From UHGV virus genome UHGV-0105470: a stretch of DNA of 35,353 bases, one strand, 5' to 3'. Source of the stretch: a virus. Made by a program: the position numbers and the translations under genes. Positions 12,004 through 20,538 of this stretch are shown here, in pieces. The notes beneath the pieces are model-generated. The model ran no database searches. It saw only the letters and a list, made by a program, of their open reading frames with translations, and was not told the origin of the DNA. Each line of letters begins with the position of its first letter. The stretch's first letter is position 1.

Positions 12004-13620
12004 TCAACGTCTAAGCCCCTCATATGGGTTCCCTCTCACTAAGTCTGTGTGAGCGCCCATTGATGGTGGCTTGAATAATTTAACTTCGTTAAGACTGTTG
12101 AAAGCATCACTGGTAGCATCCACTTGGTCATCTTTAGTTTTACCATCACCACAAAAGCCTTCAAGTTCTTGGAAGTAAGCTTCGTTCCAACTACCTCTCA
12201 AGACTTTTACAAGTCCAGCTTCAGAAGCAGCAGAAAACCCCGCAAATCGGGTAACTTTATCTTTATTTGTTGGTTTAGCTCTTGCTCGATAACCTTTCTC
12301 GGCAAGTTTCCTGATGAGGGATGTTGCGTAGGATTTACCAGCAGCGCCTGGGTCTTGAGGGATAAAAATACCAGTTCGCTTACCGTCACTTTCAGCAGTC
12401 AAATTAATTTGTGTTTCGACTCCAGAGGGTCTATCTCTAAATCTTACTACATCAATGATATAATAGCAACCGTCTTTTTTAGATTTACCCATCTTAACAC
12501 CTGCTGTCCAGTCTGGATTAGGGTTAATCTCAGATGGTAAAGTTGCTGCTAAGTCCCATGCTCTGACATCGAATACATCCTCTGGGAGTGAATCAACAAT
12601 TTCACACCATTGTCTTTGCCAATAGTTTGAACCTTCTGCACGAGCCTTCCAGTTACCGAAACGAAGTCTTGCAACGTTTACAGGAGTGTTGTTTTCCAAC
12701 TTACCACGATATTTAGGTTCTAAGAAGTCAAGAATTGGGTTATCATCAATCGTACCAGAGATGAATGTATATGTTTGAGGAATCTCAAGAGGAAACATTT
12801 CGAGAATCTTGTCTCTCTCCCAATCAGAAACCATAACACCATCATTCATTACATACCAACGAATACGACCACATTTTTCAGAGTCTGGGTAACCTTCTTC
12901 ATCTAAGAATGGTTCTACCCAATCGTAAATAAAGTGGTCTCTGTCTGGGTTCATAGAAATCTTCATGTATGAATCACCTTCAGCCCCAGAACGTAAACGA
13001 GTCTGTAGGTATGAAATCTGTGAAGCAGAGAAGTGCGTACCTTCGTCAAAGTAAATAGCTGAGTATTCAATACCCTGATGACCTTCAGCGTGCTTTTCAA
13101 GTTCTAGATAGGTAAACTTGATAGTTGCCCCAGAAGGGAATGTGATAGTCATCTTCTGCTCGTGAGGAACCCCACCAAACTTACCAAATAGTTTCTTTGC
13201 AGCAGGCCACAAACCACCTTGTAACTGTGTTGTATTTCGACGGAAATAGACAGCATTATAGTTAGGGTCATCAATAAACCTTAAAGAGTCCATTAACAAT
13301 GCAGCCGTCTTACCAGCACCAGCAGCACCACCATAGAGAACCAAGTCGGCATTAGTATTTAAAAAGACCTCTTGAGAACCCGGCTGAGGGGCTACATAGT
13401 TCTTATCAGTCATTAATTTGAAGATAAGTCTAACTTGGTCTGGTGTGTATCTTAATAAAGTCAGAATTTGAGTTGGAAGGAATTTAGAGGGGTCTTTACC
13501 GAATGATTTGATAATTTCTTTTACTTCATCAGAAAGCCCCAACTCTCCAGCTAGGACTTTCCTAACATCTTCCACTCGCTTCTGCTTAACAGCATTTAAG
13601 TCCATTAAGCACCTCCGCAA
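12004..13620 (-). CDS. terminase large subunit
   Basis: 538-aa ORF with Walker A-like GGAAGAGKT near N-terminus, followed by portal gene. Confidence 0.8.
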   Translation of the reverse strand: MRRCLMDLNAVKQKRVEDVRKVLAGELGLSDEVKEIIKSFGKDPSKFLPTQILTLLRYTPDQVRLIFKLMTDKNYVAPQPGSQEVFLNTNADLVLYGGAAGAGKTAALLMDSLRFIDDPNYNAVYFRRNTTQLQGGLWPAAKKLFGKFGGVPHEQKMTITFPSGATIKFTYLELEKHAEGHQGIEYSAIYFDEGTHFSASQISYLQTRLRSGAEGDSYMKISMNPDRDHFIYDWVEPFLDEEGYPDSEKCGRIRWYVMNDGVMVSDWERDKILEMFPLEIPQTYTFISGTIDDNPILDFLEPKYRGKLENNTPVNVARLRFGNWKARAEGSNYWQRQWCEIVDSLPEDVFDVRAWDLAATLPSEINPNPDWTAGVKMGKSKKDGCYYIIDVVRFRDRPSGVETQINLTAESDGKRTGIFIPQDPGAAGKSYATSLIRKLAEKGYRARAKPTNKDKVTRFAGFSAASEAGLVKVLRGSWNEAYFQELEGFCGDGKTKDDQVDATSDAFNSLNEVKLFKPPSMGAHTDLVRGNPYEGLRR

Positions 13621-13626
13621 ATAGAA

Positions 13627-13827
13627 TTATTCAGAGTCTGTAGCAGTCTCTTCTGTCTTAACTTCGAACTTTGCATCAACAGCATCAAGAAGTGCATCCA
13701 TAGACGCTTCTTGAATATCAATACCTGTTGCTACAGATAATCTGTCTGCAATTGCCATGATAGTGTTCTGCATAAATTCTAGCTTCTTGTTAGCTTCGTA
13801 AAGTTCTTTATAAACGGTCTCGCTCAT
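13627..13827 (-). CDS. hypothetical small protein upstream of terminase (small terminase subunit not excluded)
   Basis: 66-aa ORF; SD GGAGAAAA before ATG at 13827. Confidence 0.4.
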   Translation of the reverse strand: MSETVYKELYEANKKLEFMQNTIMAIADRLSVATGIDIQEASMDALLDAVDAKFEVKTEETATDSE

Positions 13828-13863
13828 TATGTTTTCTCCAAATAGTTAACCACGTTTCCCCTT

Positions 13864-13887
13864 AAAAAAGACGGTACAGAGACCGTC
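13864..13887 (-). terminator. rho-independent terminator downstream of the tRNA array
   Basis: GACGGT-acagag-ACCGTC hairpin followed on the minus strand by a T6 run (plus aaaaaa 13864-13869). Confidence 0.55.
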
Positions 13888-14049
13888 AAGGAGAAACCAC
13901 AATGTACGTCAGAGACATACTGTATAAGGCTTCTTATAAAGTATAACTCTGTAAAAAAGCCCTGTCTAAAAATACTCTTCGGTAGCGAAAGGAAGAATAC
14001 TTATAGCAGGGCATTATTATTATTTTAATTGAGAGAGAGTAAAATAACT

Positions 14050-14125
14050 TGGAGAATCCGAAGGGACTCGAACCCTTATAGACCTGTTTTGCAGACAGGC
14101 ACATAGCCATTTCTGTCACGGATTC
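14050..14125 (-). tRNA. tRNA-Cys (GCA)
   Basis: Hand-folded cloverleaf: acceptor GAATCCG/CGGATTC, anticodon loop CTGCAAA, T-loop TTCGAGT, CCA encoded. Confidence 0.85.
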
Positions 14126-14129
14126 AAAT

Positions 14130-14222
14130 TGGAGGAAGATACCAGACTTGAACTGGTACACCGATTTCTCAGCTACTGGCAGTTTAGCAAACTGCTCCCT
14201 TACCTTTTAGGGTTAATCTTCC
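14130..14222 (-). tRNA. tRNA-Ser (GCT), class II
   Basis: 93 nt; acceptor GGAAGAT/ATCTTCC; anticodon stem GCAGT/ACTGC with loop TTGCTAA; long variable arm; T-arm ACCAG-TTCAAGT-CTGGT. Confidence 0.85.
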
Positions 14223-14223
14223 A

Positions 14224-14958
14224 TTATTTCTGTAATGCGTTCTTCATTTCTGGTGTTGCAATAGTATCAATTACACCAGTTTTACAAGCATCATCAAACC
14301 AGTCTGGTAAGATACCTGCTAAGAACCCATTGATATTCGTTTTAAGGTACTCTGCAATAAGGGCAGCTTCTTCTTCAATCATCTGCACAACTTCATCTGC
14401 ATAAGCTGTAATCTTCGAGATACCTTCATTAATCTTACTAACAGCTTGGTTAGCTAAATCAGAAACAGTATCAAGACCTTTATCAATAGCATCTTGTAAG
14501 TCACTTAATACATCATTAACACCGTCTAGTGCACTGTTAATTGTGTCAATAGCTTTTTGACCATACTCTGTAGCAACACCCATAATACCACTAAATGGTG
14601 TACAACCAACTTGCTCTCCTGCTGCACCCATAACATTGGAGTAGCCTTTTGCTACCTGCATACGTGAGGAAAACTCATCAATAGACTTTTGACCATAATC
14701 TGTCAATGTCTTAGTGGTTGATGTAGTGCTTGTCAGACTCGTTGTAAAGCTATTAAGCAGAGCTGTTGTAAGTCCAGCAGCAATGAGCTTATCCTTCATT
14801 GTAGGGTCTGTTACAGAGCTAATAGAGCTTACAAGTGATGTAGAGGCAGCCACGGTTCCACCTAGAACTGCTGCACCAGTAATAAGGGGATTAGAAAACC
14901 CTCTACCGGTTTTTAAGAGATTAAAAATCTCCTTACCTTGTTCTGTCATCTCTTTCAT
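14224..14958 (-). CDS. hypothetical protein (Ser/Thr-rich N-terminal half, helical acidic C-terminal half) embedded in tRNA array
   Basis: ORF-track start (GTG at 15021) overlaps tRNA-Phe; ATG at 14956-14958 with SD AAAGGTG is the likelier start. Confidence 0.55.
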   Translation of the reverse strand: MKEMTEQGKEIFNLLKTGRGFSNPLITGAAVLGGTVAASTSLVSSISSVTDPTMKDKLIAAGLTTALLNSFTTSLTSTTSTTKTLTDYGQKSIDEFSSRMQVAKGYSNVMGAAGEQVGCTPFSGIMGVATEYGQKAIDTINSALDGVNDVLSDLQDAIDKGLDTVSDLANQAVSKINEGISKITAYADEVVQMIEEEAALIAEYLKTNINGFLAGILPDWFDDACKTGVIDTIATPEMKNALQK

Positions 14959-14974
14959 TAAGCACCTTTGAAAT

Positions 14975-15051
14975 TGGTAGTCCAGTGGGATTTGAACCCT
15001 CTTCTCATGTTTTTCAGACACGCGCTTTAACCATATAAGCTACTTGGACTA
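14975..15051 (-). tRNA. tRNA-Phe (GAA)
   Basis: Anticodon stem CGTGT/ACATG with loop CTGAAAA; T-loop TTCAAAT; acceptor TAGTCCA/TGGACTA; exact ends ambiguous by 1 nt. Confidence 0.7.
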
Positions 15052-15056
15052 TAAAT

Positions 15057-15132
15057 TGGGGTGACCTACGGGATTTGAACCCGTATAGACCATGTTCACA
15101 GCATGGGTCATTACCTTTTATGATAAGGCCAC
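15057..15132 (-). tRNA. tRNA-His (GTG)
   Basis: D-stem TCAT/ATGA, anticodon stem CCATG/CATGG with loop CTGTGAA, C73 discriminator, CCA encoded. Confidence 0.85.
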
Positions 15133-15163
15133 ATTTAAGGACTCTCGTAAGAACCCTTAGAAG

Positions 15164-15239
15164 TGGCAGCGGCATAAGGATTTGAACCTTAATAAGACAG
15201 CTTCAGAGACTGTTGCATTGCCAGTTATGCTATACCGCT
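15164..15239 (-). tRNA. tRNA-Gln (CTG)
   Basis: D-stem GCAT/ATGC, anticodon loop CTCTGAA, T-arm TAAGG-TTCAAAT-CCTTA, G73. Confidence 0.8.
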
Positions 15240-15244
15240 AAATT

Positions 15245-15323
15245 TGGTACTCCATATCGGATTCGAACCGATACATAACACAGATTTTAAGTCTGGCCTC
15301 TCTGCCAATTGGAGTAATGGAGC
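15245..15323 (-). tRNA. tRNA-Leu (TAA)-like, atypical class-I architecture
   Basis: 79 nt; acceptor GCTCCAT/ATGGAGT; anticodon stem CCAGA/TCTGT with loop CTTAAAA; variable loop only 7 nt; A73; T-arm ATCGG-TTCGAAT-CCGAT. Confidence 0.55.
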
Positions 15324-15325
15324 AT

Positions 15326-15401
15326 TGGCGGGGGATGTTGGAATTGAACCAACTTCTTCGATTTCAAAGACCGAGGTTTTAACCTTGTAAACTAATCCCC
15401 T
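15326..15401 (-). tRNA. tRNA-Gln (TTG)
   Basis: Acceptor AGGGGAT/ATCCCCC with 1-72 mismatch, D-stem GTTT/AAAC, anticodon stem TCGGT/ATCGA with loop CTTTGAA, G73. Confidence 0.8.
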
Positions 15402-15409
15402 TTAAATCT

Positions 15410-15967
15410 TTACTTTCTTAGTGGATGAATAAAGAATGCCAACATAACTCTTTCCCTTGAGAATGCTCTTTCTTCTGGGACAACACTTTTAAGTTTCCAC
15501 CCAACATAAATTCTCCAGTAGAATTGCTTACCAAAGACTTTAATTGACGGGATAAAAGCGAATAATCCCCAAGCATTACTGTTCCACATTAGGAGATAAC
15601 CTGTCTGATTATCTTCAGGGTTAGAACTTACATTGATATTACCTTTCCACTTAGTAACATCTTTTACATCTCTTCCTAACACATGGTAAGAGAAGTTATA
15701 AGCTTTGTTTCTCCAGAGCCAACCAACTCTCTGCATATAGACACCAAGCTTACCAATCTTTCTAATCTTAGCCCATCGTTCGACATGACCTTTATCACCA
15801 TCAATTGGGTTGTCATATGTCTCCATCCATCTGAATCCAAAAGGGAGATGTCCTTTCTTCTCACTGTAGAATGGAACTACGAAAGGTGCTAAGATAACTG
15901 CTAAGATTGCTGCAAATGGCTCTAACAAAGCTAAGAAAATCCATGAAGCATACTTCAAATATCTCAT
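15410..15967 (-). CDS. hypothetical membrane protein embedded in tRNA array
   Basis: 185-aa ORF with hydrophobic N-terminus (WIFLALLEPFAAILAVILAPFVVPF); flanked by tRNA genes. Confidence 0.55.
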   Translation of the reverse strand: MRYLKYASWIFLALLEPFAAILAVILAPFVVPFYSEKKGHLPFGFRWMETYDNPIDGDKGHVERWAKIRKIGKLGVYMQRVGWLWRNKAYNFSYHVLGRDVKDVTKWKGNINVSSNPEDNQTGYLLMWNSNAWGLFAFIPSIKVFGKQFYWRIYVGWKLKSVVPEERAFSRERVMLAFFIHPLRK

Positions 15968-15986
15968 CTAAATAGCCTCTTTAAAT

Positions 15987-16062
15987 TGGCGCAGGATAAG
16001 GGATTCGAACCCCTATTAACAGCTTCGTAGACTGTTGCTCTATCCATTTGAACTAATCCTGC
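15987..16062 (-). tRNA. tRNA-Arg (ACG)
   Basis: Acceptor GCAGGAT/ATCCTGC, anticodon stem ACAGT/GCTGT with loop CTACGAA, T-loop TTCGAAT. Confidence 0.85.
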
Positions 16063-16067
16063 AAAAC

Positions 16068-16145
16068 TGGTGTTCCAAGACGGATTCGAACCGTCACTAA
16101 TACAAGGTTTGAGCTTGCATCCTCTGCCAATTGGGATACTGGAAC
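16068..16145 (-). tRNA. tRNA-Leu (CAA)-like, atypical class-I architecture
   Basis: 78 nt; acceptor GTTCCAG/TTGGAAC; anticodon stem GCAAG/CTTGT with loop CTCAAAC; 6-nt variable loop; A73; shares AATTGGCAG D-loop with 15245-15323. Confidence 0.55.
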
Positions 16146-16146
16146 A

Positions 16147-16222
16147 TGGTACTCACTAAAGGACTTGAACCTTTTTTCTTCATCTTGTAAGGGTGATGTT
16201 TTACCATATAAACTAAGCGAGT
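16147..16222 (-). tRNA. tRNA-Val (TAC)
   Basis: Acceptor ACTCGCT/AGTGAGT, D-stem GTTT/AAAC, anticodon loop CTTACAA, T-arm AAAGG-TTCAAGT-CCTTT. Confidence 0.85.
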
Positions 16223-16318
16223 ATGAAAGAGGTCTGAAGTTGTGCCGCTAACTCAACTCCGTGGAATTTGTTATGGTCTTCAGTTGACTCAAAGCGGTCT
16301 TTCACTTGACCTCTAAAT

Positions 16319-16394
16319 TGGTGCTCCCACAAGGATTCGAACCCTGATAAGTTGCTTACAAGGCAACCGTAATAGCCAATTATACGATAGGAGC
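16319..16394 (-). tRNA. tRNA-Thr (TGT)
   Basis: Acceptor GCTCCTA/TGGGAGC, anticodon stem GTTGC/GCAAC with loop CTTGTAA, T-loop TTCGAAT. Confidence 0.85.
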
Positions 16395-16401
16395 ATTAAT
16401 T

Positions 16402-16476
16402 TGGAGCATCCAGAGGGAATCGAACCCTCAACCTCAGTTTGGAAGACTGTAATTTTCCCGTTTAAACTATGGATGC
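16402..16476 (-). tRNA. tRNA-Gly (TCC)
   Basis: Acceptor GCATCCA/TGGATGC, anticodon loop CTTCCAA, T-arm GAGGG-TTCGATT-CCCTC. Confidence 0.8.
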
Positions 16477-16482
16477 ACTAAT

Positions 16483-16558
16483 TGGTGGAGTCACTGAGAA
16501 TTGAACTCAGTTCCCAAGTTTGCAAAACTCGAATTTTAACCATATAAACTATGACCCC
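16483..16558 (-). tRNA. tRNA-Ala (TGC)
   Basis: G3-U70 wobble in acceptor (Ala identity element), anticodon loop TTTGCAA, T-arm CTGAG-TTCAATT-CTCAG. Confidence 0.85.
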
Positions 16559-16564
16559 ATTGCT

Positions 16565-16640
16565 TGGTACAGGTGGAGGGAATTGAACCCATCGTCTTAC
16601 TGATTAAGAGTCAGCCGCATAACCATTTTGCTACACCTGC
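16565..16640 (-). tRNA. tRNA-Lys (CTT)
   Basis: Acceptor GCAGGTG/CACCTGT, anticodon stem GCTGA/TCAGT with loop CTCTTAA; T-stem only 3 clean bp. Confidence 0.7.
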
Positions 16641-16647
16641 ATTAATT

Positions 16648-16725
16648 TGGTAGGAGACAAGGGATTCGAACCCTCAAACACCAACTTCTAAGGATGGTAG
16701 GTTTACCAATTACCGTCAATCTCCC
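16648..16725 (-). tRNA. tRNA-Leu (TAG)-like, atypical class-I architecture
   Basis: 78 nt; acceptor GGGAGAT/GTCTCCT (two G-U); anticodon stem CCATC/GTTGG with loop CTTAGAA; 5-nt variable loop; A73. Confidence 0.5.
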
Positions 16726-16977
16726 ATTAAATCTTTTTAGAGAACTTCTAAGAACCTAAGCAACAAGGTTCCACAACAAGCTGTAATAACCTTAGAAGCC
16801 CTCTAAAAAGACCTAATTTGGTCTTTGCATAGTCTTGTTTAATCCGGTGACTAGAACCTTTGGAGAGCTTGATATATCTCTTCTCCGTGACACCTACTAG
16901 GTGCTTTATCAGTGTACGACAATACACGAGGGATAAACCGAAAATGCGAGCAAGCATGGACGGTGTAAATCTTATTA

Positions 16978-17067
16978 GGCGGTAAGTAAAGGAGTCGAAC
17001 CCTCACCGTATCTCTACAGTGGCAACAGTTTTCAAGACTGTTTGGCTGCCATTAGCCGCTACCTACC
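16978..17067 (-). tRNA. tRNA-Ser (TGA), class II
   Basis: 90 nt; acceptor GGTAGGT/ACTTACC; anticodon stem ACAGT/ACTGT with loop CTTGAAA; long variable arm; T-loop TTCGACT; 3' CCA not fully encoded. Confidence 0.8.
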
Positions 17068-17080
17068 CCTAATAAGATTT

Positions 17081-17163
17081 TGGCATGGGACGGAGGAGTT
17101 GAACCCCTTTGAAACGGTTTTGGAGGCCGTTGCTCATGCCTTAGAGTCTTAACATCGTCCCAT
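17081..17163 (-). tRNA. tRNA-Trp (CCA)-like, atypical 83 nt
   Basis: Acceptor ATGGGAC/GTCCCAT, Trp-type anticodon loop CTCCAAA, T-loop TTCAACT, G73 CCA; 5' half about 7 nt longer than canonical. Confidence 0.5.
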
Positions 17164-17305
17164 ACTGTAATTCGAAGCTTACCGTATTTTCACAACACTG
17201 TAAAGCCCCTTCTCAGATTATTTACATGTTCTGGAAAACATGAGATACAGACCACCTCCTTACACGGAGACCCGATAAGGTCGTCTAAGCAATCTGCTAA
17301 CTATT

Positions 17306-17382
17306 TGGCACACCCTACAGGATTCGAACCTGTAACTCAATGATTAGAAGTCATTTGCTCTGTCCAGTTGAACTAAGGGTGC
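17306..17382 (-). tRNA. tRNA-Arg (TCT)
   Basis: Acceptor GCACCCT/AGGGTGT, D-stem GTTC/GAGC, anticodon stem AATGA/TCATT with loop CTTCTAA. Confidence 0.85.
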
Positions 17383-17629
17383 ATTAATCTTTAAAAACTC
17401 TCTTAGAAAGCCCTTAAAGATGCCCACCTTATTAATCATACCGTGGGCTAGTACGCCAAATTCTTTGATGAGGGATTGGAAGACCTCACTGGTGTTTAGC
17501 CTATCAAGCTACTGCCAGAAAAACATTGTCGTTTGCATTTATTTTAAATTTGCAAAATAGACGCTACGCAACGAAAACTAAGGTTACTATAAAGTGGTCA
17601 CATCTAAATGTCAACAACTTTATTGAAAT

Positions 17630-17705
17630 TGGTACTGGTAGGTGGAATCGAACCACCGATGTTCCCTTATCAGGGGAGTGTTATAACCTTCTTAACTATA
17701 CCAGC
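17630..17705 (-). tRNA. tRNA-Ile (GAT)
   Basis: Acceptor GCTGGTA/TACCAGT, anticodon loop CTGATAA, T-arm GGTGG-TTCGATT-CCACC. Confidence 0.85.
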
Positions 17706-17706
17706 T

Positions 17707-17782
17707 TGGAGGTTCAGATGGGATTCGAACCCACATTCATAGGGCTTATGAGACCCTTGCATTACCTTATCTGCGACTGAAC
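17707..17782 (-). tRNA. tRNA-Met (CAT); elongator, initiator or Ile2 not distinguishable
   Basis: Acceptor GGTTCAG/CTGAACC, anticodon stem AGGGT/GCCCT with loop CTCATAA. Confidence 0.8.
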
Positions 17783-17787
17783 CATAT

Positions 17788-17863
17788 TGGTAGAAGTGGA
17801 GGGATTCGAACCCATCGCCTGTCAGATTAAAAGTCTGCCGCATCACCATTCTGCTACACTTCC
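17788..17863 (-). tRNA. tRNA-Lys (TTT)
   Basis: Acceptor GGAAGTG/CACTTCT, anticodon loop CTTTTAA; paralogous in sequence to the Lys (CTT) gene. Confidence 0.8.
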
Positions 17864-17869
17864 ATTAAA

Positions 17870-18009
17870 TTATCTTTGTAGATAAGCTACCCAGACTTGC
17901 TTAAGGTCTGTAGCGATGTGCCTTGTTGGGTTTAAATCTAGAATTTACCCTTTCACCCTTTGTGGTCGCATACTCACAGGTAAGCTTAATAACTTATCTA
18001 CAAAGATAA
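17870..18009. repeat. 16-17 bp inverted repeat pair (ttatctttgtagataag / cttatctacaaagataa) flanking about 105 bp
   Basis: Exact reverse-complement 16-mers at about 17870-17886 and 17993-18009 inside the tRNA array spacer. Confidence 0.6.
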
Positions 18010-18060
18010 TTACCAGACCGTTGTTTATCATCTTAAGTGCTACCATTACACCAACTCGAC

Positions 18061-18140
18061 ATCTGCCGAGTGAAGGAATCGAACCTTCGCCTTTTCTTTA
18101 CCGGAGAAATAGATTGTTTAAGTTTTGCTGTAAACGGTCT
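18061..18140 (-). pseudogene. tRNA remnant (intact T-arm, no pairing acceptor stem)
   Basis: T-arm GAAGG-TTCGATT-CCTTC and stem-loop TTTCT-CCGGTAA-AGAAA, but no 5' strand complementary to ACTCGGC and C at loop position 33. Confidence 0.35.
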
Positions 18141-18154
18141 TCTGTAAATTTGTT

Positions 18155-18235
18155 GAGCCAGACCAAGTTTTAAATTTTCAAAATTAAATTGGCTTTAAAT
18201 TTTAAGTAACTTGCTGAATTTGGTCTTCTGCTCCT
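18155..18235 (-). ncRNA. conserved spacer stem element in tRNA array (one of four copies)
   Basis: CCAGACC(R) ... (Y)GGTCTTCTG ends with compensatory R/Y covariation across copies at 18011-18145, 18155-18235, 18558-18625, 18714-18796. Confidence 0.4.
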
Positions 18236-18291
18236 TTAAAGAATACTCGTAAGAACCCTTTAAGGGAGGGGCTAAATAGCCCTCTCAAAAT

Positions 18292-18368
18292 TGGCGGTTA
18301 CGATGAGACTTGAACTCACATCATCTCCCGTGACAGGGGAGTATTTTATCCAGTTAAACTACATAACC
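18292..18368 (-). tRNA. tRNA-Asp (GTC)
   Basis: Acceptor GGTTATG/CGTAACC, anticodon stem CTCCC/GGGAG with loop CTGTCAC, T-loop TTCAAGT. Confidence 0.85.
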
Positions 18369-18374
18369 TTTATT

Positions 18375-18462
18375 TGGTGTGCCGTGTAGGAGTCGAACCT
18401 ACCGAGTCTCAATGACAAGGGATTTACAGTCCCCACCGCTACCATCTACGGGATAACGACAC
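18375..18462 (-). tRNA. tRNA-Tyr (GTA), class II
   Basis: 88 nt; acceptor GTGTCGT/ACGGCAC; anticodon stem GGGGA/TCCCT with loop CTGTAAA; long variable arm; T-arm GTAGG-TTCGACT-CCTAC. Confidence 0.8.
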
Positions 18463-18471
18463 ATTTAAATT

Positions 18472-18548
18472 TGGCGGTTAGTCAGGGATTCGAACCCTGT
18501 GCCATTCGCTTAACAGGCGACCGCACATACCTTATGTGCTTCCTAACC
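18472..18548 (-). tRNA. tRNA-Asn (GTT)
   Basis: D-stem GCAC/GTGC, anticodon loop CTGTTAA, T-arm CAGGG-TTCGAAT-CCCTG. Confidence 0.8.
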
Positions 18549-18628
18549 TTAATATATTGCCAGACCGTGTTTTTTTTTCTTTTATCCGCAAAAAGTAGTT
18601 TATTGCTGCATACGGTCTTCTGCAAAAT

Positions 18629-18705
18629 TGGAGGCGGGTGCAGGAGTCGAACCTGCCGATGCCATGCTAATGAGACATGTGAGACGCCCTTTCTCTATAC
18701 CCGCA
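18629..18705 (-). tRNA. tRNA with CAT anticodon (Met or Ile2), second copy
   Basis: Anticodon stem CATGT/GCATG with loop CTCATTA (pyrimidine at 37), T-arm GCAGG-TTCGACT-CCTGC, 1-72 mismatch. Confidence 0.6.
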
Positions 18706-18796
18706 ATTCTTAATGACCAGACCAAATCTCTTCTTTGTCCGATTTAGCTTCAGATGAATAAGATTAAGTTTGCTGTAATTGGTCTTCTGTCAAAAC

Positions 18797-18874
18797 TGGC
18801 GTTCCAGAAGGGATTTTAACCCTCAAATATCCACTTTGAAAGAGTGGTGACTATACCATTTTGTCTACTGGAAC
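18797..18874 (-). tRNA. tRNA-Glu (TTC)
   Basis: Acceptor GTTCCAG/CTGGAAC, anticodon stem CCACT/AGTGG with loop CTTTCAA; unusual T-loop TTAAAAT (A at position 56). Confidence 0.75.
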
Positions 18875-18881
18875 ATTAATT

Positions 18882-18958
18882 TGGTCTCTGTTGGAGGACT
18901 TGAACCTCCGGCCTTACCGCCCCAAACGGAACACTCTACCAAGCTGAGCTAAACAGAG
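18882..18958 (-). tRNA. tRNA-Pro (TGG)
   Basis: C1-G72 acceptor CTCTGTT/AACAGAG, D-stem GCTC/GAGT, anticodon loop TTTGGGG, T-arm GGAGG-TTCAAGT-CCTCC. Confidence 0.85.
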
Positions 18959-19082
18959 ATAAACTTTTCAAACTCTATGTAACCACTTTAACATTATTTT
19001 TTAGTGATTGTCAAGAACTTTTTTAAAATATTTTTCAGTATCTTAGAAAAGCTCTCATTTCGTTTCTATGTAGAACATATTA

Positions 19083-19112
19083 AAGGGTATCAAACACATT
19101 GTCAATACCCTT
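19083..19112. terminator. perfect 8-bp hairpin (AAGGGTAT-N14-ATACCCTT), possible terminator
   Basis: Inverted repeat followed by a T-rich tract on the plus strand; sits between the vWA gene 3' end and the tRNA array. Confidence 0.4.
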
Positions 19113-19123
19113 TTTAAAACTTT

Positions 19124-20538
19124 TTACCAGATATAACGGTCAACCATTACTGCTTTGAGCATTACGCTGATTGGGTCAAACTTCTCACCACCAAGCAGAG
19201 CTTTTAAAGTGGCTGGAGAGAACCCTGATACCATCGCTACACCATTATCCTTAACAGATACTTCGCAAGTACCATTACGGTTTGCTAAGTACCAGAATAC
19301 TAGTTGTGGCATTTCGTATCCAGCTTTTTTGTACTTACTCTGAATTGCTTCAAAGTTTGTACGACCATTTGCACCATCAACCTGATTAAACTCCATATCA
19401 GAGAAGATAATAAGCTTACTTGGCATATCTTTCTGAGTCAAGTTGTTTCTCTTACCTATCTCAAGAATACGGTCAAAGCTGCTTGTAAGTTAGTTGAACC
19501 ATATTCAACATGACGCATTACCTGACGATGACGGTTTCGTAAATCACCACTCAGTTCAATGAAATGAGGGTTTGTTGAATAGACCATTAACTCATCTTTA
19601 AAGCAACCTGTATTGCGTTCTGCTACATACAAGGCAAGTGATACACCAATATCAAGGGCAGTGATTGAACCAAGATTCACCCAAGACATTGAGCTTGAAA
19701 CATCAGTCATACACAAGATGTTCTCACCTTCTGCCATCCAGTTTGGTAGTGCTTTCCACTGCTCATTAGCAACATCTGCATTACCATGCTTGATAGACTT
19801 AATCACATCGTATGGGTAGACAGCACCAGCATTAATCTTAGCCTCACCTTTTGATAAGGACTCAATGTAAGCTTTGTAGCGTTCTCCATCTTTGCGGTTA
19901 AAGAGCTTTTGGTAACGTGCAGCAGCAAGAGACGGAATCTTACTGTAATCAATCTTACCAAACTCATTAGCAGAGATTTTTTGCTCAACCGTATCAGACA
20001 GTGCAGATAACAGTGTGCGGTATTCTTTCTCGCTTAAGTTTGCAAACTTACAGAAACGTTTTACAAACTGTTTGTGTCGTGGTTTTACTCGTGGTAACCA
20101 CTTGGCTGCTAAACCTGCTGTCTCAGGGTCTAGTAATGCTGCTTCTAAATGCTTAAAGGCATCTGTCTCAAAACGAGTACCTACGAAGATTTTGAAGTCA
20201 TCAAAACGACCAAGTTCTGCAATCTTATCCATAATACGAAGAAACTGTGTAGGCTCTAAAACTTTATCTTCGATTGCTTGAAGTAAAACAGTTCTGAAGG
20301 CTTTACGCTCACCCATACCTTCTCGTACATCTCGCATGTGAAGCAAAATACGAACTGCAACATCAACATCCTCACGCAAAGCTTTGTAGAACAAGTCTGG
20401 TAAGATTTCTACATTGCTACGGCTTGAACCAGCAGCTTTGTAAAAGTCCACAAGAGCAGACATTGATGAAGTATGGTTTACAGCACCATTTTCAGTTCGA
20501 CCTGCATGAAGGTGCGCATGTTTAAATAATTCGCTCAT
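19124..20538 (-). pseudogene. vWA-domain protein gene (Ro60/TROVE-like?) interrupted by a frameshift
   Basis: ORF 19456..20538 carries MIDAS motif DVSSS and ends ...GSTNLQAALTVFLR*; ORF 19124..19441 in a different frame carries the downstream vWA motif LIIFSDMEF; the two frames overlap at 19456-19492. Confidence 0.6.

What the first reader, a model, noticed from the sequence alone, without database searches (positions are those of the whole stretch)
14050..18958. Large minus-strand tRNA array (about 27 genes) with embedded protein genes
About 27 tRNA genes plus one remnant on one strand: Cys, Ser x2, Phe, His, Gln x2, Arg x2, Val, Thr, Gly, Ala, Lys x2, Ile, Met/CAT x2, Asp, Tyr, Asn, Glu, Pro, a Trp-like gene and three Leu-like genes. 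Most encode CCA. Two protein genes (14224-14958 and membrane protein 15410-15967) sit inside the array, and a terminator follows it at 13864-13887. Arrays of this size are characteristic of large virulent phages that remodel host translation.
Basis: partly seen in the sequence, partly recalled or inferred. Interest (0 to 1): 0.55.

Follow-up and report, generated by a model that had tools for sequence, protein, structure and literature searches.

The report
Phage tRNA array with Y-RNAs
This is the well-known tRNA gene cluster of a Felix O1-like phage, but its "empty" spacers hold four unannotated small RNAs that look like partner (Y) RNAs of the Ro60-like protein encoded just upstream.

Summary
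ARAGORN finds 26 tRNA genes, all on the minus strand, at exactly 14050-18958, and none elsewhere in the window. 25 of the 26 encode CCA. The two embedded protein genes and the terminator are real. The window is a Felixounavirus (96-97% identical to many E. coli and Salmonella phages), so the array itself is already known and annotated.

Three things go beyond existing annotation:
- **Trp-like gene (17081-17163).** Tools miss it, but it is conserved with compensatory changes in three genera and carries tRNA-Trp identity marks. With it, the set covers all 20 amino acids.
- **The "remnant" and three repeats (18011-18789).** Each has a basal stem, the motif UUNCAGCAA and, in one copy, a permuted tRNA-like domain like YrlA Y RNAs.
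- **Link to the upstream gene.** In 76 unrelated phage contigs this family sits beside, and on the strand of, DUF2828 genes. The upstream DUF2828 gene (19124-20538, frameshifted here) has a Ro60 fold.

The short copies match, feature by feature, the Class I RNAs of Dictyostelium. This link is unproven.

Verdict: an ordinary array with a new variant of a Ro60/Y-RNA module inside it.

The parts
18882..18958 (-). tRNA-Pro (UGG), first gene of the array
   Evidence: ARAGORN; Rfam tRNA 55.3 bits
18797..18874 (-). tRNA-Glu (UUC)
18715..18789 (-). Short Y-like RNA, copy 1: CAGAAGACCAA-UUACAGCAA...UUGGUCUGG
   Evidence: Model R2 41.4 bits, E 2.6e-5. Fold. Syntenic copies in Mooglevirus and Suspvirus.
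18629..18705 (-). Atypical tRNA with CAU anticodon: U at position 37, and an irregular acceptor or 3' end
   Evidence: ARAGORN. No Rfam tRNA hit. Orthologue called by tRNAscan-SE in Sf16.
18558..18622 (-). Short Y-like RNA, copy 2
   Evidence: R2 32.7 bits, E 2e-3. Rfam Dicty_Class_I_RNA 22 bits, below threshold.
18472..18548 (-). tRNA-Asn (GUU)
18375..18462 (-). tRNA-Tyr (GUA), class II
18292..18368 (-). tRNA-Asp (GUC)
18156..18230 (-). Short Y-like RNA, copy 3
   Evidence: R2 37.8 bits, E 1.7e-4. Fold.
18011..18144 (-). Order: basal stem AGACCGU/ACGGUCU, UUUACAGCAA, V hairpin, T arm, closed acceptor-like stem ACUCGGC-AGAU-GUCGAGU, D arm.
   Evidence: R1 78.5 bits, E 1e-13. Structure. Covariation. 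Present but not annotated as an RNA in 246+ phage records.
17788..17863 (-). tRNA-Lys (UUU)
17707..17783 (-). tRNA with CAU anticodon (Met or Ile2, not decided), U73
17630..17705 (-). tRNA-Ile (GAU)
17586..17614 (-). Internal sigma-70-like promoter, TTGACA-17-TATAGT (11 of 12 matches)
   Evidence: A consensus match only.
17306..17382 (-). tRNA-Arg (UCU)
17081..17163 (-). Non-canonical tRNA-Trp-like gene: 83 nt, A1-U72, G73, CCA end, loop CUCCAAA, about 7 extra nt before the D stem
   Evidence: Compensatory changes across three genera. Not called by ARAGORN. Rfam 23 bits.
16978..17067 (-). tRNA-Ser (UGA), the only gene without an encoded CCA
16648..16725 (-). tRNA-Leu (UAG) with short variable arm, A73
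16565..16640 (-). tRNA-Lys (CUU)
16483..16558 (-). tRNA-Ala (UGC)
16402..16476 (-). tRNA-Gly (UCC)
16319..16394 (-). tRNA-Thr (UGU)
16147..16222 (-). tRNA-Val (UAC)
16068..16145 (-). tRNA-Leu (CAA) with short variable arm, A73
15987..16062 (-). tRNA-Arg (ACG)
15410..15967 (-). Embedded gene: 185-aa DUF7338 protein with an N-terminal membrane segment
15326..15401 (-). tRNA-Gln (UUG)
15245..15323 (-). tRNA-Leu (UAA) with short variable arm, A73
15164..15239 (-). tRNA-Gln (CUG)
15057..15132 (-). tRNA-His (GUG)
14975..15050 (-). tRNA-Phe (GAA)
14224..14958 (-). Embedded gene: 244-aa DUF7217 protein (phrog_2114), function unknown
14130..14222 (-). tRNA-Ser (GCU)
14050..14125 (-). tRNA-Cys (GCA), last gene of the array
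13953..14012 (-). Long GC-closed hairpin followed by UUUUUU: likely first terminator of the array
   Evidence: z = -6.8
13864..13887 (-).
18985..19105 (-). Two tandem sigma-70-like promoters upstream of tRNA-Pro: TTGACA-17-TAATAT and TTGACA-18-TAAAGT with TG
   Evidence: Consensus matches only.
19124..20538 (-). Ro60-fold gene (DUF2828 + DUF7788/vWA). Split here into 360-aa and 105-aa ORFs by loss of one T in a T4 run at about 19477.

Best explanation
**What it is.** The region is the RNA-gene operon of a Felix O1-like (Felixounavirus) virulent phage.

**Transcription and processing (inferred).** It is probably transcribed from two promoters upstream of tRNA-Pro and one internal promoter. It probably ends at two tandem terminators after tRNA-Cys. 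The host tRNA-processing enzymes would then cut it up.

**The tRNAs.** It supplies 26 tRNAs plus a structurally odd tRNA-Trp-like RNA. Together these are a nearly complete decoding set for all 20 amino acids. The set is built around U34 anticodons, which suit the phage's A/U-ending codons. The likely role (inferred) is to keep phage translation efficient and independent of the host tRNA pool. That would help when host tRNAs are poorly matched, run down or cut by anticodon-nuclease defences.

**The small RNAs.** Four small RNAs of a different kind are interleaved in the first part of the operon. Three are short (about 65-75 nt). One is long (134 nt) and carries a permuted tRNA-like domain in the order T arm, closed acceptor stem, D arm. 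All share a basal stem and the motif UUNCAGCAA.

**Their likely partner (inferred).** They are most likely Y-RNA-type partners of the Ro60-fold protein encoded immediately upstream. By analogy with bacterial and phage Ro60/Y-RNA particles, the RNP would bind or gate structured or damaged RNAs and could recruit or restrain host exoribonucleases such as PNPase.

**Shown versus inferred.** Shown: the genes, their structures, their conservation, the co-location with the Ro60-like gene, and the protein fold. Inferred: transcription units, processing, protein-RNA binding, and any role in translation or anti-defence.

**Confidence by part.** About 0.99 that this is the known Felixounavirus tRNA array. 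About 0.75 that the four spacer elements are partner RNAs of the Ro60-like protein.
For: **tRNA array**
- 26 ARAGORN genes lie on one strand at 14050-18958. 23 exceed the Rfam gathering score and 2 are class II tRNAs.
- 25 of 26 encode CCA.
- The region is 96-97% identical to annotated Felixounavirus arrays. The literature reports 17-23 tRNAs per Felixounavirus genome (PMC8300805).
- Codons cognate to the phage tRNAs are enriched in phage ORFs relative to E. coli genes. AGA is 46% versus 2% of Arg codons, and CUA, UUA, CCA, ACA, UCA, GCA and GUA are all raised. Mean log2 enrichment is +0.48 versus -0.42, with one-sided p = 0.04.

**Trp-like gene**
- It has A1-U72, G73, a CCA end and the loop CUCCAAA, as in E. 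coli trpT.
- Compensatory changes occur across three genera in the anticodon stem (AACGG/CCGUU versus GUAAG/CUUAC) and the D stem (CUC/GAG versus CAC/GUG).

**Y-like RNAs**
- CAGAAGACC occurs four times in the window. All four are on the minus strand at 18144-18789, and each is paired with a downstream GGUCUGG.
- A scanner for permuted tRNA-like modules found such modules beside DUF2828 genes in unrelated contigs.
- All 16 collected modules have a 7-bp basal stem with no mismatch (14 all Watson-Crick, 2 with one G-U), of differing sequence, and a [A/C/U]NC[A/C]GCA match (consensus UUNCAGCAA) next to it. The scanner did not select for the stem.
- Model R1 gives 130 hits, and model R2 gives 85. 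Every hit is on the strand of the DUF2828 gene. There are none in 50 kb of E. coli control DNA.
- 44 of 76 loci have a full-model R1 hit within 600 nt of the gene, and 40 of 76 have an R2 hit within 600 nt. This includes 22 of 42 loci with no tRNA gene at all.
- On 25 long forms, 95.8% of cells are paired, against 37-46% when partners are slid. 20 of 22 pairs show changes on both sides.
- The same layout of three short copies plus one long copy is found in Mooglevirus and Suspvirus, and the acceptor-like stem covaries there.
- Rfam YrlA matches long forms in other loci at 35-38 bits, E 1e-6 to 2e-4.

**Protein**
- The AlphaFold model has pLDDT 89.
- The ten best PDB matches are all Ro60/TROVE proteins over the full length, TM 0.5-0.65, E 3e-8 to 1e-6.
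- PhageMaP found the Bas63 orthologue gp130 to be Ro60-like and to counter the ppl defence. Its authors guessed that Y RNAs hide in the tRNA stretch (PMC11482910).
- Thermus phage phiLo Ro60 binds phage Y-like RNAs and host PNPase (PMC12135203).
Against: - There are no expression, processing or binding data for any of these RNAs.
- The window's long element gets no Rfam YrlA hit even at E <= 10. Relatives stay below YrlA's gathering score of 69.
- The YrlA Ro-binding motif GNCGAAN0-1G is absent and is replaced by a different motif.
- The protein matches no TROVE model or Ro60 chain by sequence. Only the fold matches.
- In this window the Ro60-like gene is frameshifted. Either the RNP is not needed here or the read has an error.
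- Two of the window's short copies are orthologues of L003 sequences used to build R2, so their scores are not independent.
- The codon-usage test is modest (p = 0.04) and used a 50-kb sample of host genes.
- Bas63 tRNA genes were mostly non-essential on laboratory hosts.
Confidence: 0.78

Rival explanations
1. The four spacer elements are not functional RNAs. They would be decayed tRNA copies, or repeated hairpins left by duplication or by homing-endonuclease traffic. At most they would serve as spacers or processing and terminator hairpins of the tRNA precursor.
For: - They lie in the long, indel-prone spacers of the array.
- A related phage (Sf16) has an HNH homing endonuclease gene in a neighbouring spacer.
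- Folding z-scores of the single elements are weak, -1.3 to -1.8.
- Rfam's tRNA model sees the long element only as a partial tRNA of 22-23 bits.
Against: - The same family, with covarying stems and an invariant motif, lies next to DUF2828 genes in dozens of unrelated phage contigs. These include 22 loci with no tRNA gene.
- The T-then-acceptor-then-D order with a 4-nt closing loop cannot arise by simple decay of a tRNA gene.
- The acceptor-like stem keeps pairing through compensatory changes between genera.
- All four copies are syntenic in three genera.
Confidence: 0.08
2. The small RNAs are real but do not work through the Ro60-like protein. They could be decoys or sponges for host tRNA-directed enzymes such as anticodon nucleases, RNase P, CCA-adding or modification enzymes. 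They could also be regulators of array processing, and merely co-inherited with the neighbouring gene.
For: - The long form mimics the tRNA elbow and acceptor stem.
- In some loci the acceptor-like loop begins with NCCA.
- The Ro60-like gene is broken in this window and truncated in several relatives, while the RNAs are kept.
Against: - The tight, strand-specific placement within 600 nt of the DUF2828 gene, in loci without tRNAs, points to a protein-RNA pair.
- Short forms have no tRNA-like part at all, yet keep the stem and motif.
- Every studied Ro60 has adjacent partner Y RNAs.
Confidence: 0.12
3. The main job of the tRNA array is not codon matching. It would be insurance against host defence: replacing host tRNAs cut by anticodon nucleases or retron- and PARIS-type systems, or degraded after host shut-off.
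For: - The set covers all 20 amino acids, including codons that are not enriched in the phage, such as GAA, AAA, GAC and UUC. Pure codon compensation does not require this.
- The adjacent Ro60-like gene counters a defence system in Bas63, and that paper cites phage tRNAs as counter-defence.
- Bas63 tRNAs are dispensable on laboratory hosts, as expected for conditional functions.
Against: - No anticodon-loop comparison with host tRNAs was made across the set. The few pairs compared are simply 48-64% identical overall.
- Every 4- and 6-codon box is served by the tRNA for the codon that the phage over-uses, which fits codon matching.
- The two roles are not exclusive.
Confidence: 0.35

Closest known systems
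tRNA gene clusters of Felixounavirus / Ounavirinae (Felix O1, Bas63, fjerdesal, Sf16) and, more loosely, of T4 and T5
   Same: - Same genes in the same order, 96-97% identical to many records.
- Same position downstream of the DUF2828 gene and upstream of the large terminase gene.
- Same embedded DUF7217 and DUF7338 genes.
   Different: Nothing material. Counts differ by tool: 17-23 by tRNAscan-SE in the literature, 26 by ARAGORN here. Depositors have not annotated the Trp-like gene in the three relatives' records inspected, nor the long Y-like element in the records listed.
Ro60 (Rsr) with YrlA-type Y RNAs of bacteria and phages (Salmonella, Mycobacterium, mycobacteriophages, Thermus phage phiLo)
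   Same: - A ring-shaped Ro60-fold protein with a vWA domain, encoded next to its small RNAs.
- RNA ends paired in a stem.
- One RNA per locus carries a tRNA-like domain in the order V, T, acceptor-like stem, D.
- Shorter partner RNAs without that domain also exist, as with YrlB.
- Rfam YrlA gives sub-threshold matches.
   Different: - The protein belongs to Pfam DUF2828/DUF7788, not TROVE, and has no sequence-level match to Ro60.
- The conserved RNA motif is UUNCAGCAA directly after the 5' stem strand, flanked by AAG...CUG, not GNCGAAN0-1G or CGAA.
- In Ounavirinae the RNAs are embedded inside a tRNA operon.
Class I RNAs of dictyostelid social amoebas (Rfam RF01414)
   Same: Published features (PMC7919456) all recur in the phage short forms:
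- Length of 42-65 nt.
- Start AAG.
- A short covarying stem joining the two ends.
- An 11-nt motif, ...CUUACAGCAA, next to the 5' stem strand.
- A variable middle.
- End CUGU.

Among 4227 Rfam families, RF01414 is the best match at four of these elements, at 30.8, 25.4 and 22.0 bits on short forms and 12.8 bits on the window's long form.
   Different: - All scores are below the gathering score of 41.5.
- The Dictyostelium RNAs are nuclear-encoded with their own promoter element.
- Their one proven partner is an RRM protein (Rnp1A), not a Ro60-like protein.
- I could not check whether dictyostelids encode a DUF2828 protein.

Membership tests
Phage tRNA gene array (Felixounavirus type) | Many closely spaced, co-oriented genes that fold as tRNAs | tested here: met
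   26 by ARAGORN, all on the minus strand, with gaps mostly of 1-9 nt. 23 are above the Rfam gathering score.
Phage tRNA gene array (Felixounavirus type) | Located in a phage genome, syntenic with the arrays of the genus | tested here: met
   100% coverage at 96-97% identity to Felixounavirus records with the same annotated tRNAs. Terminase and DUF2828 genes flank it.
Phage tRNA gene array (Felixounavirus type) | tRNAs are expressed, processed and aminoacylated during infection | not testable with these tools
   Only promoter- and terminator-like sites and encoded CCA ends were seen.
Ro60 / TROVE protein | HEAT-repeat ring plus C-terminal vWA domain (Ro60 fold) | tested here: met
   AlphaFold model of the intact orthologue has pLDDT 89. 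The ten best PDB matches are all Ro60/TROVE over the full length, TM 0.5-0.65.
Ro60 / TROVE protein | Sequence membership of the Pfam TROVE family, or similarity to solved Ro60 chains | tested here: not met
   Pfam gives only DUF2828 and DUF7788, even at E <= 10. phmmer against PDB gives no Ro60 hit.
YrlA-type Y RNA | Gene lies next to, and on the strand of, a Ro60 gene | tested here: met
   The four window copies lie 335-1113 nt downstream of the gene on its strand. 44 of 76 other loci have a copy within 600 nt.
YrlA-type Y RNA | 5' and 3' ends pair in a stem | tested here: met
   7-bp basal stem, 98% paired, with all 7 pairs showing changes on both sides across 25 sequences.
YrlA-type Y RNA | tRNA-like domain in the order V, T arm, acceptor-like stem-loop, D arm | tested here: met
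   Window 18011-18144. T, acceptor-like and D helices are 90-100% paired with compensatory changes. The three short copies lack it, as YrlB does.
YrlA-type Y RNA | Conserved 5' motif GNCGAAN0-1G (Ro60 contact) | tested here: not met
   The motif is absent. The conserved motif is UUNCAGCAA, with AAG and CUG flanks.
YrlA-type Y RNA | Reaches the gathering score of Rfam RF02553 | tested here: not met
   No hit for the window element. 34.8-38.0 bits against a threshold of 69 for relatives in L020 and L075.
YrlA-type Y RNA | Binds Ro60 in vivo or in vitro | not testable with these tools
   No data available.
Dictyostelid Class I RNA | About 42-65 nt; AAG start; short covarying terminal stem; 11-nt motif next to the 5' strand; CUGU end | tested here: met
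   The phage short-form alignment shows (W)AAG, a 7-bp stem, nUUACAGCAAA, and CUG(N). Lengths are 56-76 nt, compared with PMC7919456. The window copies end CUGG and are 65-75 nt.
Dictyostelid Class I RNA | Reaches the gathering score of Rfam RF01414 | tested here: not met
   Best scores are 30.8, 25.4 and 22.0 bits against a threshold of 41.5.
Dictyostelid Class I RNA | Common descent, or a shared protein partner (a DUF2828 protein in Dictyostelia) | not tested
   The AFDB library was unavailable. Avesson et al. 2011, which lists the pulled-down proteins, is not held.
tRNA-Trp | CCA anticodon in a 7-nt loop, G73, A1-U72, and a canonical cloverleaf | tested here: inconclusive
   Loop CUCCAAA, G73, A1-U72 and a CCA end are present and conserved with covariation. 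However, 31-39 is a C-A mismatch and about 7 extra nt precede a 3-bp D stem. ARAGORN and Rfam do not call it.

The most novel reading that the evidence does not exclude
The short RNAs in the array spacers belong to a widespread phage RNA family that partners DUF2828-type Ro60-like proteins. This family would be homologous to the Class I RNAs of Dictyostelium, which have been thought unique to social amoebas and have no known mechanism. If so, Class I RNAs are a kind of Y RNA and their missing partner is a Ro60-like (DUF2828) protein. A Ro60-like RNP distinct from classical Ro60/Y RNA would then span phages and eukaryotes.
Probability: 0.3. Interest if true: 0.8.

Novelty: new variant of a known kind. 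Interest (0 to 1): 0.45.

Why it matters
The tRNA array itself adds nothing new. It is annotated in hundreds of Felix O1-like genomes.

What matters is what lies in its spacers. A published preprint noted that the upstream protein of phage Bas63 looks like Ro60 and counters a bacterial defence system. Its authors guessed that partner Y RNAs might be hidden among the tRNA genes. Here those RNAs are located. They are not any of the annotated tRNAs but four unannotated elements.

The same RNA family accompanies DUF2828 genes across many unrelated phages. This gives:
- concrete RNAs to test for binding, for PNPase recruitment and for the anti-defence phenotype;
- a covariance model for annotating them elsewhere;
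- a possible handle on the long-unexplained Class I RNAs of Dictyostelium.

The work also flags a conserved, tool-invisible tRNA-Trp-like gene. With it, the phage would carry a tRNA for every amino acid. Short-armed leucine tRNAs are flagged as well.

Tried and rejected
- **Rfam on the array.** Rfam at E <= 1 over 13000-20000, and at E <= 10 on sub-regions, gave no family at gathering score other than tRNA. Weak tmRNA and permuted-tmRNA hits at 17383-17688 (14-29 bits) overlap tRNA-Ile and were dismissed as chance.
- **Relaxed ARAGORN on the Trp-like region.** It gave only an implausible 96-nt 'Pyl' fold, so the tool does not support a canonical tRNA there. Conservation evidence was used instead.
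- **Sequence search of the Ro60-like protein against PDB.** No relevant hit. Only the fold comparison worked.
- **Unavailable resources.** Foldseek against AFDB, to look for a Dictyostelium DUF2828 protein, was not available. The supplement of Chen et al. 2014 listing phage YrlA RNAs, the 2020 Annual Review and Avesson et al. 2011 are not held.
- **Embedded proteins.** A tblastn search looked for the DUF7217 and DUF7338 proteins in other DUF2828 loci. They occur only in Felixounavirus, so they are not part of the Ro60/RNA module.
- **Dimeric-tRNA artefacts.** Weak R1 hits in the window at 15276-15392, 16017-16127 and 16351-16462 span two adjacent tRNAs. They were discarded as the known dimeric-tRNA artefact.
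- **CAGAAGACC repeats as terminators or REP-like repeats.** This reading was rejected because of the cross-lineage conservation next to DUF2828 genes.

Full report
**1. The observation**

ARAGORN finds 26 tRNA genes in the 35,353-base window. All are on the minus strand.

Rfam's tRNA model scores 23 of them above its gathering score. The class II Ser(UGA) and Tyr genes are matched best by the related tRNA-Sec model. One CAT gene (18629-18705) gets no Rfam hit, and only 16 bits to tRNA-Sec in a smaller search. It has U at position 37 and an ambiguous acceptor end. Its orthologue is called by tRNAscan-SE in phage Sf16.

25 of the 26 genes encode CCA. Ser(UGA) does not. Most neighbours are 1-9 nt apart. 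Eleven larger gaps of 31-752 nt remain, and two of them hold protein genes.

The ORFs 14224-14958 and 15410-15967 are conserved genes of Pfam families DUF7217 and DUF7338. The second has an N-terminal membrane segment. A stronger hairpin plus U6 precedes it at 14012-13953, with z = -6.8.

**2. Where the window comes from**

The 5.3-kb region matches 397 phage records. 236 of them cover at least 80% of it. The best are 96-97% identical and belong to Felixounavirus (Ounavirinae), the Felix O1-like virulent myoviruses of E. coli, Salmonella and Shigella. Their records annotate the same tRNAs in the same order, between the large terminase gene and a 'vWFA protein' gene. A comparative paper reports 17-23 tRNAs per Felixounavirus genome (PMC8300805).

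**3. How the array is built**

The three best sigma-70-like sites in 13500-19500 are all on the minus strand:
- Two are in tandem, 19105-19077 and 19014-18985, just upstream of tRNA-Pro.
- One is internal at 17614-17586, matching 11 of 12 consensus positions.

These are consensus matches only. The total number of sites is no higher than in shuffled sequence.

The anticodon set can read every sense codon except UGG and CGG, by standard wobble rules (my own reasoning). It is built on U34 anticodons for every four-codon box.

I compared codon use in 41 window ORFs with 39 E. coli K-12 genes. The phage strongly prefers exactly those A-ending codons:
- AGA makes up 46% of Arg codons, against 2% in the host sample.
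- CUA, UUA, CCA, ACA, UCA, GCA and GUA are all raised.
- Codons with a cognate phage tRNA are enriched overall: mean log2 +0.48 versus -0.42, one-sided Mann-Whitney p = 0.04.

The set also includes tRNAs for codons that are not enriched. This suggests general independence from the host tRNA pool rather than codon matching alone.

**4. Unusual tRNAs**

*The Trp-like gene (17081-17163, 83 nt).*
- It has a 7-8-bp acceptor stem with A1-U72, discriminator G73, an encoded CCA and the loop CUCCAAA. E. coli trpT, fetched for comparison, shows the same features.
- About 7 extra nucleotides precede a 3-bp D stem, and 31-39 is a C-A mismatch. This explains why ARAGORN misses it, even at relaxed thresholds, and why Rfam gives only 23 bits.
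- It is conserved in Felixounavirus, Suspvirus and Mooglevirus. Four of the five anticodon-stem pairs are exchanged compensatorily (AACGG/CCGUU versus GUAAG/CUUAC). One D-stem pair is also exchanged, and the loop is invariant.
- It is therefore under selection as a structured RNA, and probably serves as the 27th tRNA. Charging is untested.

*The three Leu tRNAs.* They are 78-79 nt long. They share the D arm of E. coli tRNA-Leu and have A73, but their variable arm is cut to 6-8 nt. Similar short Leu tRNAs occur in three other phage lineages of the sample. It is established that E. coli LeuRS relies on A73 and D-arm tertiary features rather than the long arm (my own knowledge, not tested here). 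They may therefore still accept leucine.

**5. The spacers hold a second kind of RNA**

The word CAGAAGACC occurs four times in the window. All four are on the minus strand between 18144 and 18789. Each is followed 66-125 nt later by GGUCUGG. Each pair folds into the same base:
- a 4-bp outer helix whose sequence differs between copies;
- a 3 x 1 internal loop;
- a 7-8-bp helix;
- directly after the 5' strand, the motif UUACAGCAA or a close variant.

The copy at 18011-18144 encloses a permuted tRNA-like module. In order, it has a small hairpin, a T arm (GAAGGUUCGAUUCCUUC), a 7-bp acceptor-like stem closed by a 4-nt loop (ACUCGGC-AGAU-GUCGAGU) and a D arm. This is the order described for YrlA-type bacterial Y RNAs (PMC4201824).

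**6. The family is conserved and tied to the upstream gene**

I fetched 80 IMG/VR loci that encode homologues of the upstream protein. A simple scanner for 'T arm, closed acceptor stem, D arm' found such modules beside the gene in many unrelated loci.

All 16 collected modules also had features the scanner did not ask for:
- a 7-bp basal stem with no mismatch (14 all Watson-Crick, 2 with one G-U), of differing sequence;
- the motif next to its 5' strand;
- an A-rich run before the 3' strand, and YUG after it.

*Model R1.* A covariance model of the long form gave 130 hits at E <= 0.1 in 1.29 Mb searched on both strands. Every hit was on the strand of the protein gene. 59 of 76 loci had a full-model hit, and 44 had one within 600 nt of the gene.

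*Covariation.* On 25 long forms, 95.8% of cells are paired, against 37-46% when partners are slid. 20 of 22 pairs show changes on both sides. The covariation score is 0.80, against 0.19 in shuffles (0 of 500 reach it).

*Model R2.* A second model, of the short form, gave 85 hits, again all on the gene's strand, and none in 50 kb of E. coli DNA. Further results:
- 53 of 82 hits in the loci lie within 600 nt of the gene.
- 22 of 42 loci with no tRNA gene still have one there. The link is therefore to the protein gene, not to tRNA arrays.
- The window's three short copies score 41.4, 37.8 and 32.7 bits. Two have orthologues in the seed alignment, so these scores are not fully independent.

*Synteny and annotation.* The same layout of three short copies plus one long copy is kept in Mooglevirus and Suspvirus, with compensatory change in the acceptor-like stem. 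The long copy is present in at least 246 phage records, including Felix O1. In the 30 records listed it is either unannotated or covered by a 'hypothetical protein' (one row spans neighbouring tRNA genes).

*Rfam.* No family reaches threshold on these elements. YrlA (RF02553) matches long forms in two other loci at 35-38 bits, E 1e-6 to 2e-4, against a gathering score of 69.

**7. The upstream protein**

The gene at 19124-20538 belongs to Pfam DUF2828 plus DUF7788, and to PHROG 850 'RNA-binding protein'. In this window, loss of one T from a T4 run at about 19477 splits it. Relatives have an intact 471-aa protein. Truncated versions also exist in other records.

It matches no solved structure by sequence. 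An AlphaFold model of the 97%-identical intact orthologue has pLDDT 89 and pTM 0.89. Its ten best PDB matches are all Ro60/TROVE proteins over the full length. They include frog and human Ro60, Deinococcus Rsr and Thermus phage phiLo Ro60, with E 3e-8 to 1e-6 and TM 0.5-0.65. Lower matches cover only the vWA domain.

*Prior literature.*
- The PhageMaP preprint noted that Bas63 gp130, the same gene in another Felixounavirus, resembles Ro60 and counters the ppl defence. [quoted passage not shown]
- Phage Ro60 with Y-like RNAs is known from mycobacteriophages and others.
- Thermus phage phiLo Ro60 binds two such RNAs and host PNPase (PMC12135203).

**8. Most likely mechanism, and rivals**

*Shown:* the genes, folds, covariation, synteny and protein fold.

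*Inferred:*
- The operon is transcribed as long precursors, and host RNase P and 3' processing release the tRNAs. The Y-like RNAs lie between tRNAs (copy 1 between Glu and CAU, copy 2 between CAU and Asn), so the same cuts would free them.
- The RNAs bind the Ro60-like ring through the stem and motif.
- The particle acts on structured or damaged RNA, or on host exoribonucleases, as in known Ro60 systems. This possibly serves counter-defence.

*Rivals:*
- Inert repeats or tRNA debris. This is unlikely given section 6.
- Real RNAs that act without the protein, for example as tRNA-enzyme decoys. This is possible, and the broken gene here mildly favours it.
- For the tRNAs, defence insurance rather than codon matching. 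The two are not exclusive.

**9. A further resemblance**

Among all Rfam families, the one that repeatedly matches the short forms best is Dicty_Class_I_RNA. It scores 30.8 bits (E 0.001), 25.4 and 22.0 bits on short forms, and 12.8 bits on the window's long form. All are below the gathering score of 41.5.

The published description of Class I RNAs is: 42-65 nt, start AAG, a short covarying stem joining the ends, an 11-nt motif (consensus ...CUUACAGCAA) next to the 5' strand, a variable middle, and end CUGU. They were said to be absent outside Dictyostelia (PMC7919456). This fits the phage short-form consensus, (W)AAG-stem-nUUACAGCAAA...stem-CUG(N), feature by feature.

I could not test whether dictyostelids have a DUF2828 protein, or whether one was among the proteins pulled down with a Class I RNA. 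This remains a lead and not a finding.

**10. Verdict**

The finding as written is correct and ordinary: a known Felixounavirus tRNA array. Three points add value:
- The Trp-like gene is probably real.
- The 'remnant' and three neighbouring repeats are a Y-RNA-like family.
- This family, together with the DUF2828 Ro60-like gene, forms a variant of the Ro60/Y-RNA system that is widespread in phages and not in Rfam.

It fails two defining tests of YrlA membership, the motif and the model score. I therefore describe it as working like, but not being a member of, the YrlA family.

Noticed in passing
window 19477 (within 19124-20538, minus strand): The Ro60-like DUF2828 gene is split into 360-aa and 105-aa ORFs by loss of one T in a TTTT run, relative to four intact relatives. 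This is either a sequencing error or a real inactivation. Other Felixounavirus records also carry truncated versions (218-423 aa).
   Followed up: partly
window 15245-15323, 16068-16145, 16648-16725 (minus strand): All three Leu-anticodon tRNAs are only 78-79 nt long. They have the D arm of E. coli tRNA-Leu and A73, but the long variable arm is reduced to 6-8 nt. Similar short Leu tRNAs occur in loci L008, L024 and L056, while other phage loci keep 83-87-nt Leu tRNAs.
   Followed up: partly
window 17869-18010 (minus strand): A 142-nt element closed by a 23-bp stem, with three internal hairpins, lies between the long Y-like RNA and tRNA-Lys(UUU). Folding energy is -47 kcal/mol, z = -6.45. It matches no Rfam family and its function is unknown.
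   Followed up: no
window 18248-18262 and 15144-15158 (minus strand): The 15-mer AAGGGTTCTTACGAG recurs in two inter-tRNA spacers and forms small hairpins. A looser variant seems to lie near 17400. These could be processing signals.
   Followed up: no
window 16223-16318 (minus strand): The 96-nt spacer between tRNA-Thr and tRNA-Val folds into a long imperfect hairpin, -26.8 kcal/mol, z = -3.05. It is unexplained.
   Followed up: no
window 17383-17629 (minus strand): A 247-nt spacer holds the strongest promoter-like site of the region (TTGACA-17-TATAGT). About 190 nt of non-coding sequence follow it before tRNA-Arg(UCU). By eye, part of that sequence looks like a degraded tRNA.
   Followed up: no
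L087 2459-2806 (Shigella phage Sf16): An HNH homing endonuclease gene sits in the spacer after tRNA-Arg(UCU) in this relative. The long spacers of the array may therefore be scars or landing sites of mobile endonuclease genes.
   Followed up: no
L069 11843-11901, L081 7700-7758, L040 11563-11618, L086 1505-1630: In several long-form RNAs the loop closing the acceptor-like stem begins with a discriminator base plus CCA. This looks like a permuted tRNA gene, so RNase P and 3' trimming could split these RNAs into two pieces. The window's copy (loop AGAU) lacks this.
   Followed up: no
L074 3231, L075 4374, L028 20038, L079 14760, L081 7793: ARAGORN labels tRNAs in these unrelated DUF2828-bearing phage contigs as 'Stop' or 'Pyl'. 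These labels denote anticodons complementary to stop codons, so they are possible suppressor tRNAs and a hint of stop-codon recoding.
   Followed up: no
L023 15696-15922: A group I intron (Rfam RF00028, 71.5 bits, above threshold) lies about 4 kb downstream of the DUF2828 gene in this unrelated phage contig.
   Followed up: no
window 16978-17067 (minus strand): tRNA-Ser(UGA) is the only gene of the array without an encoded CCA (it ends GCC-U). It would need the host CCA-adding enzyme.
   Followed up: no
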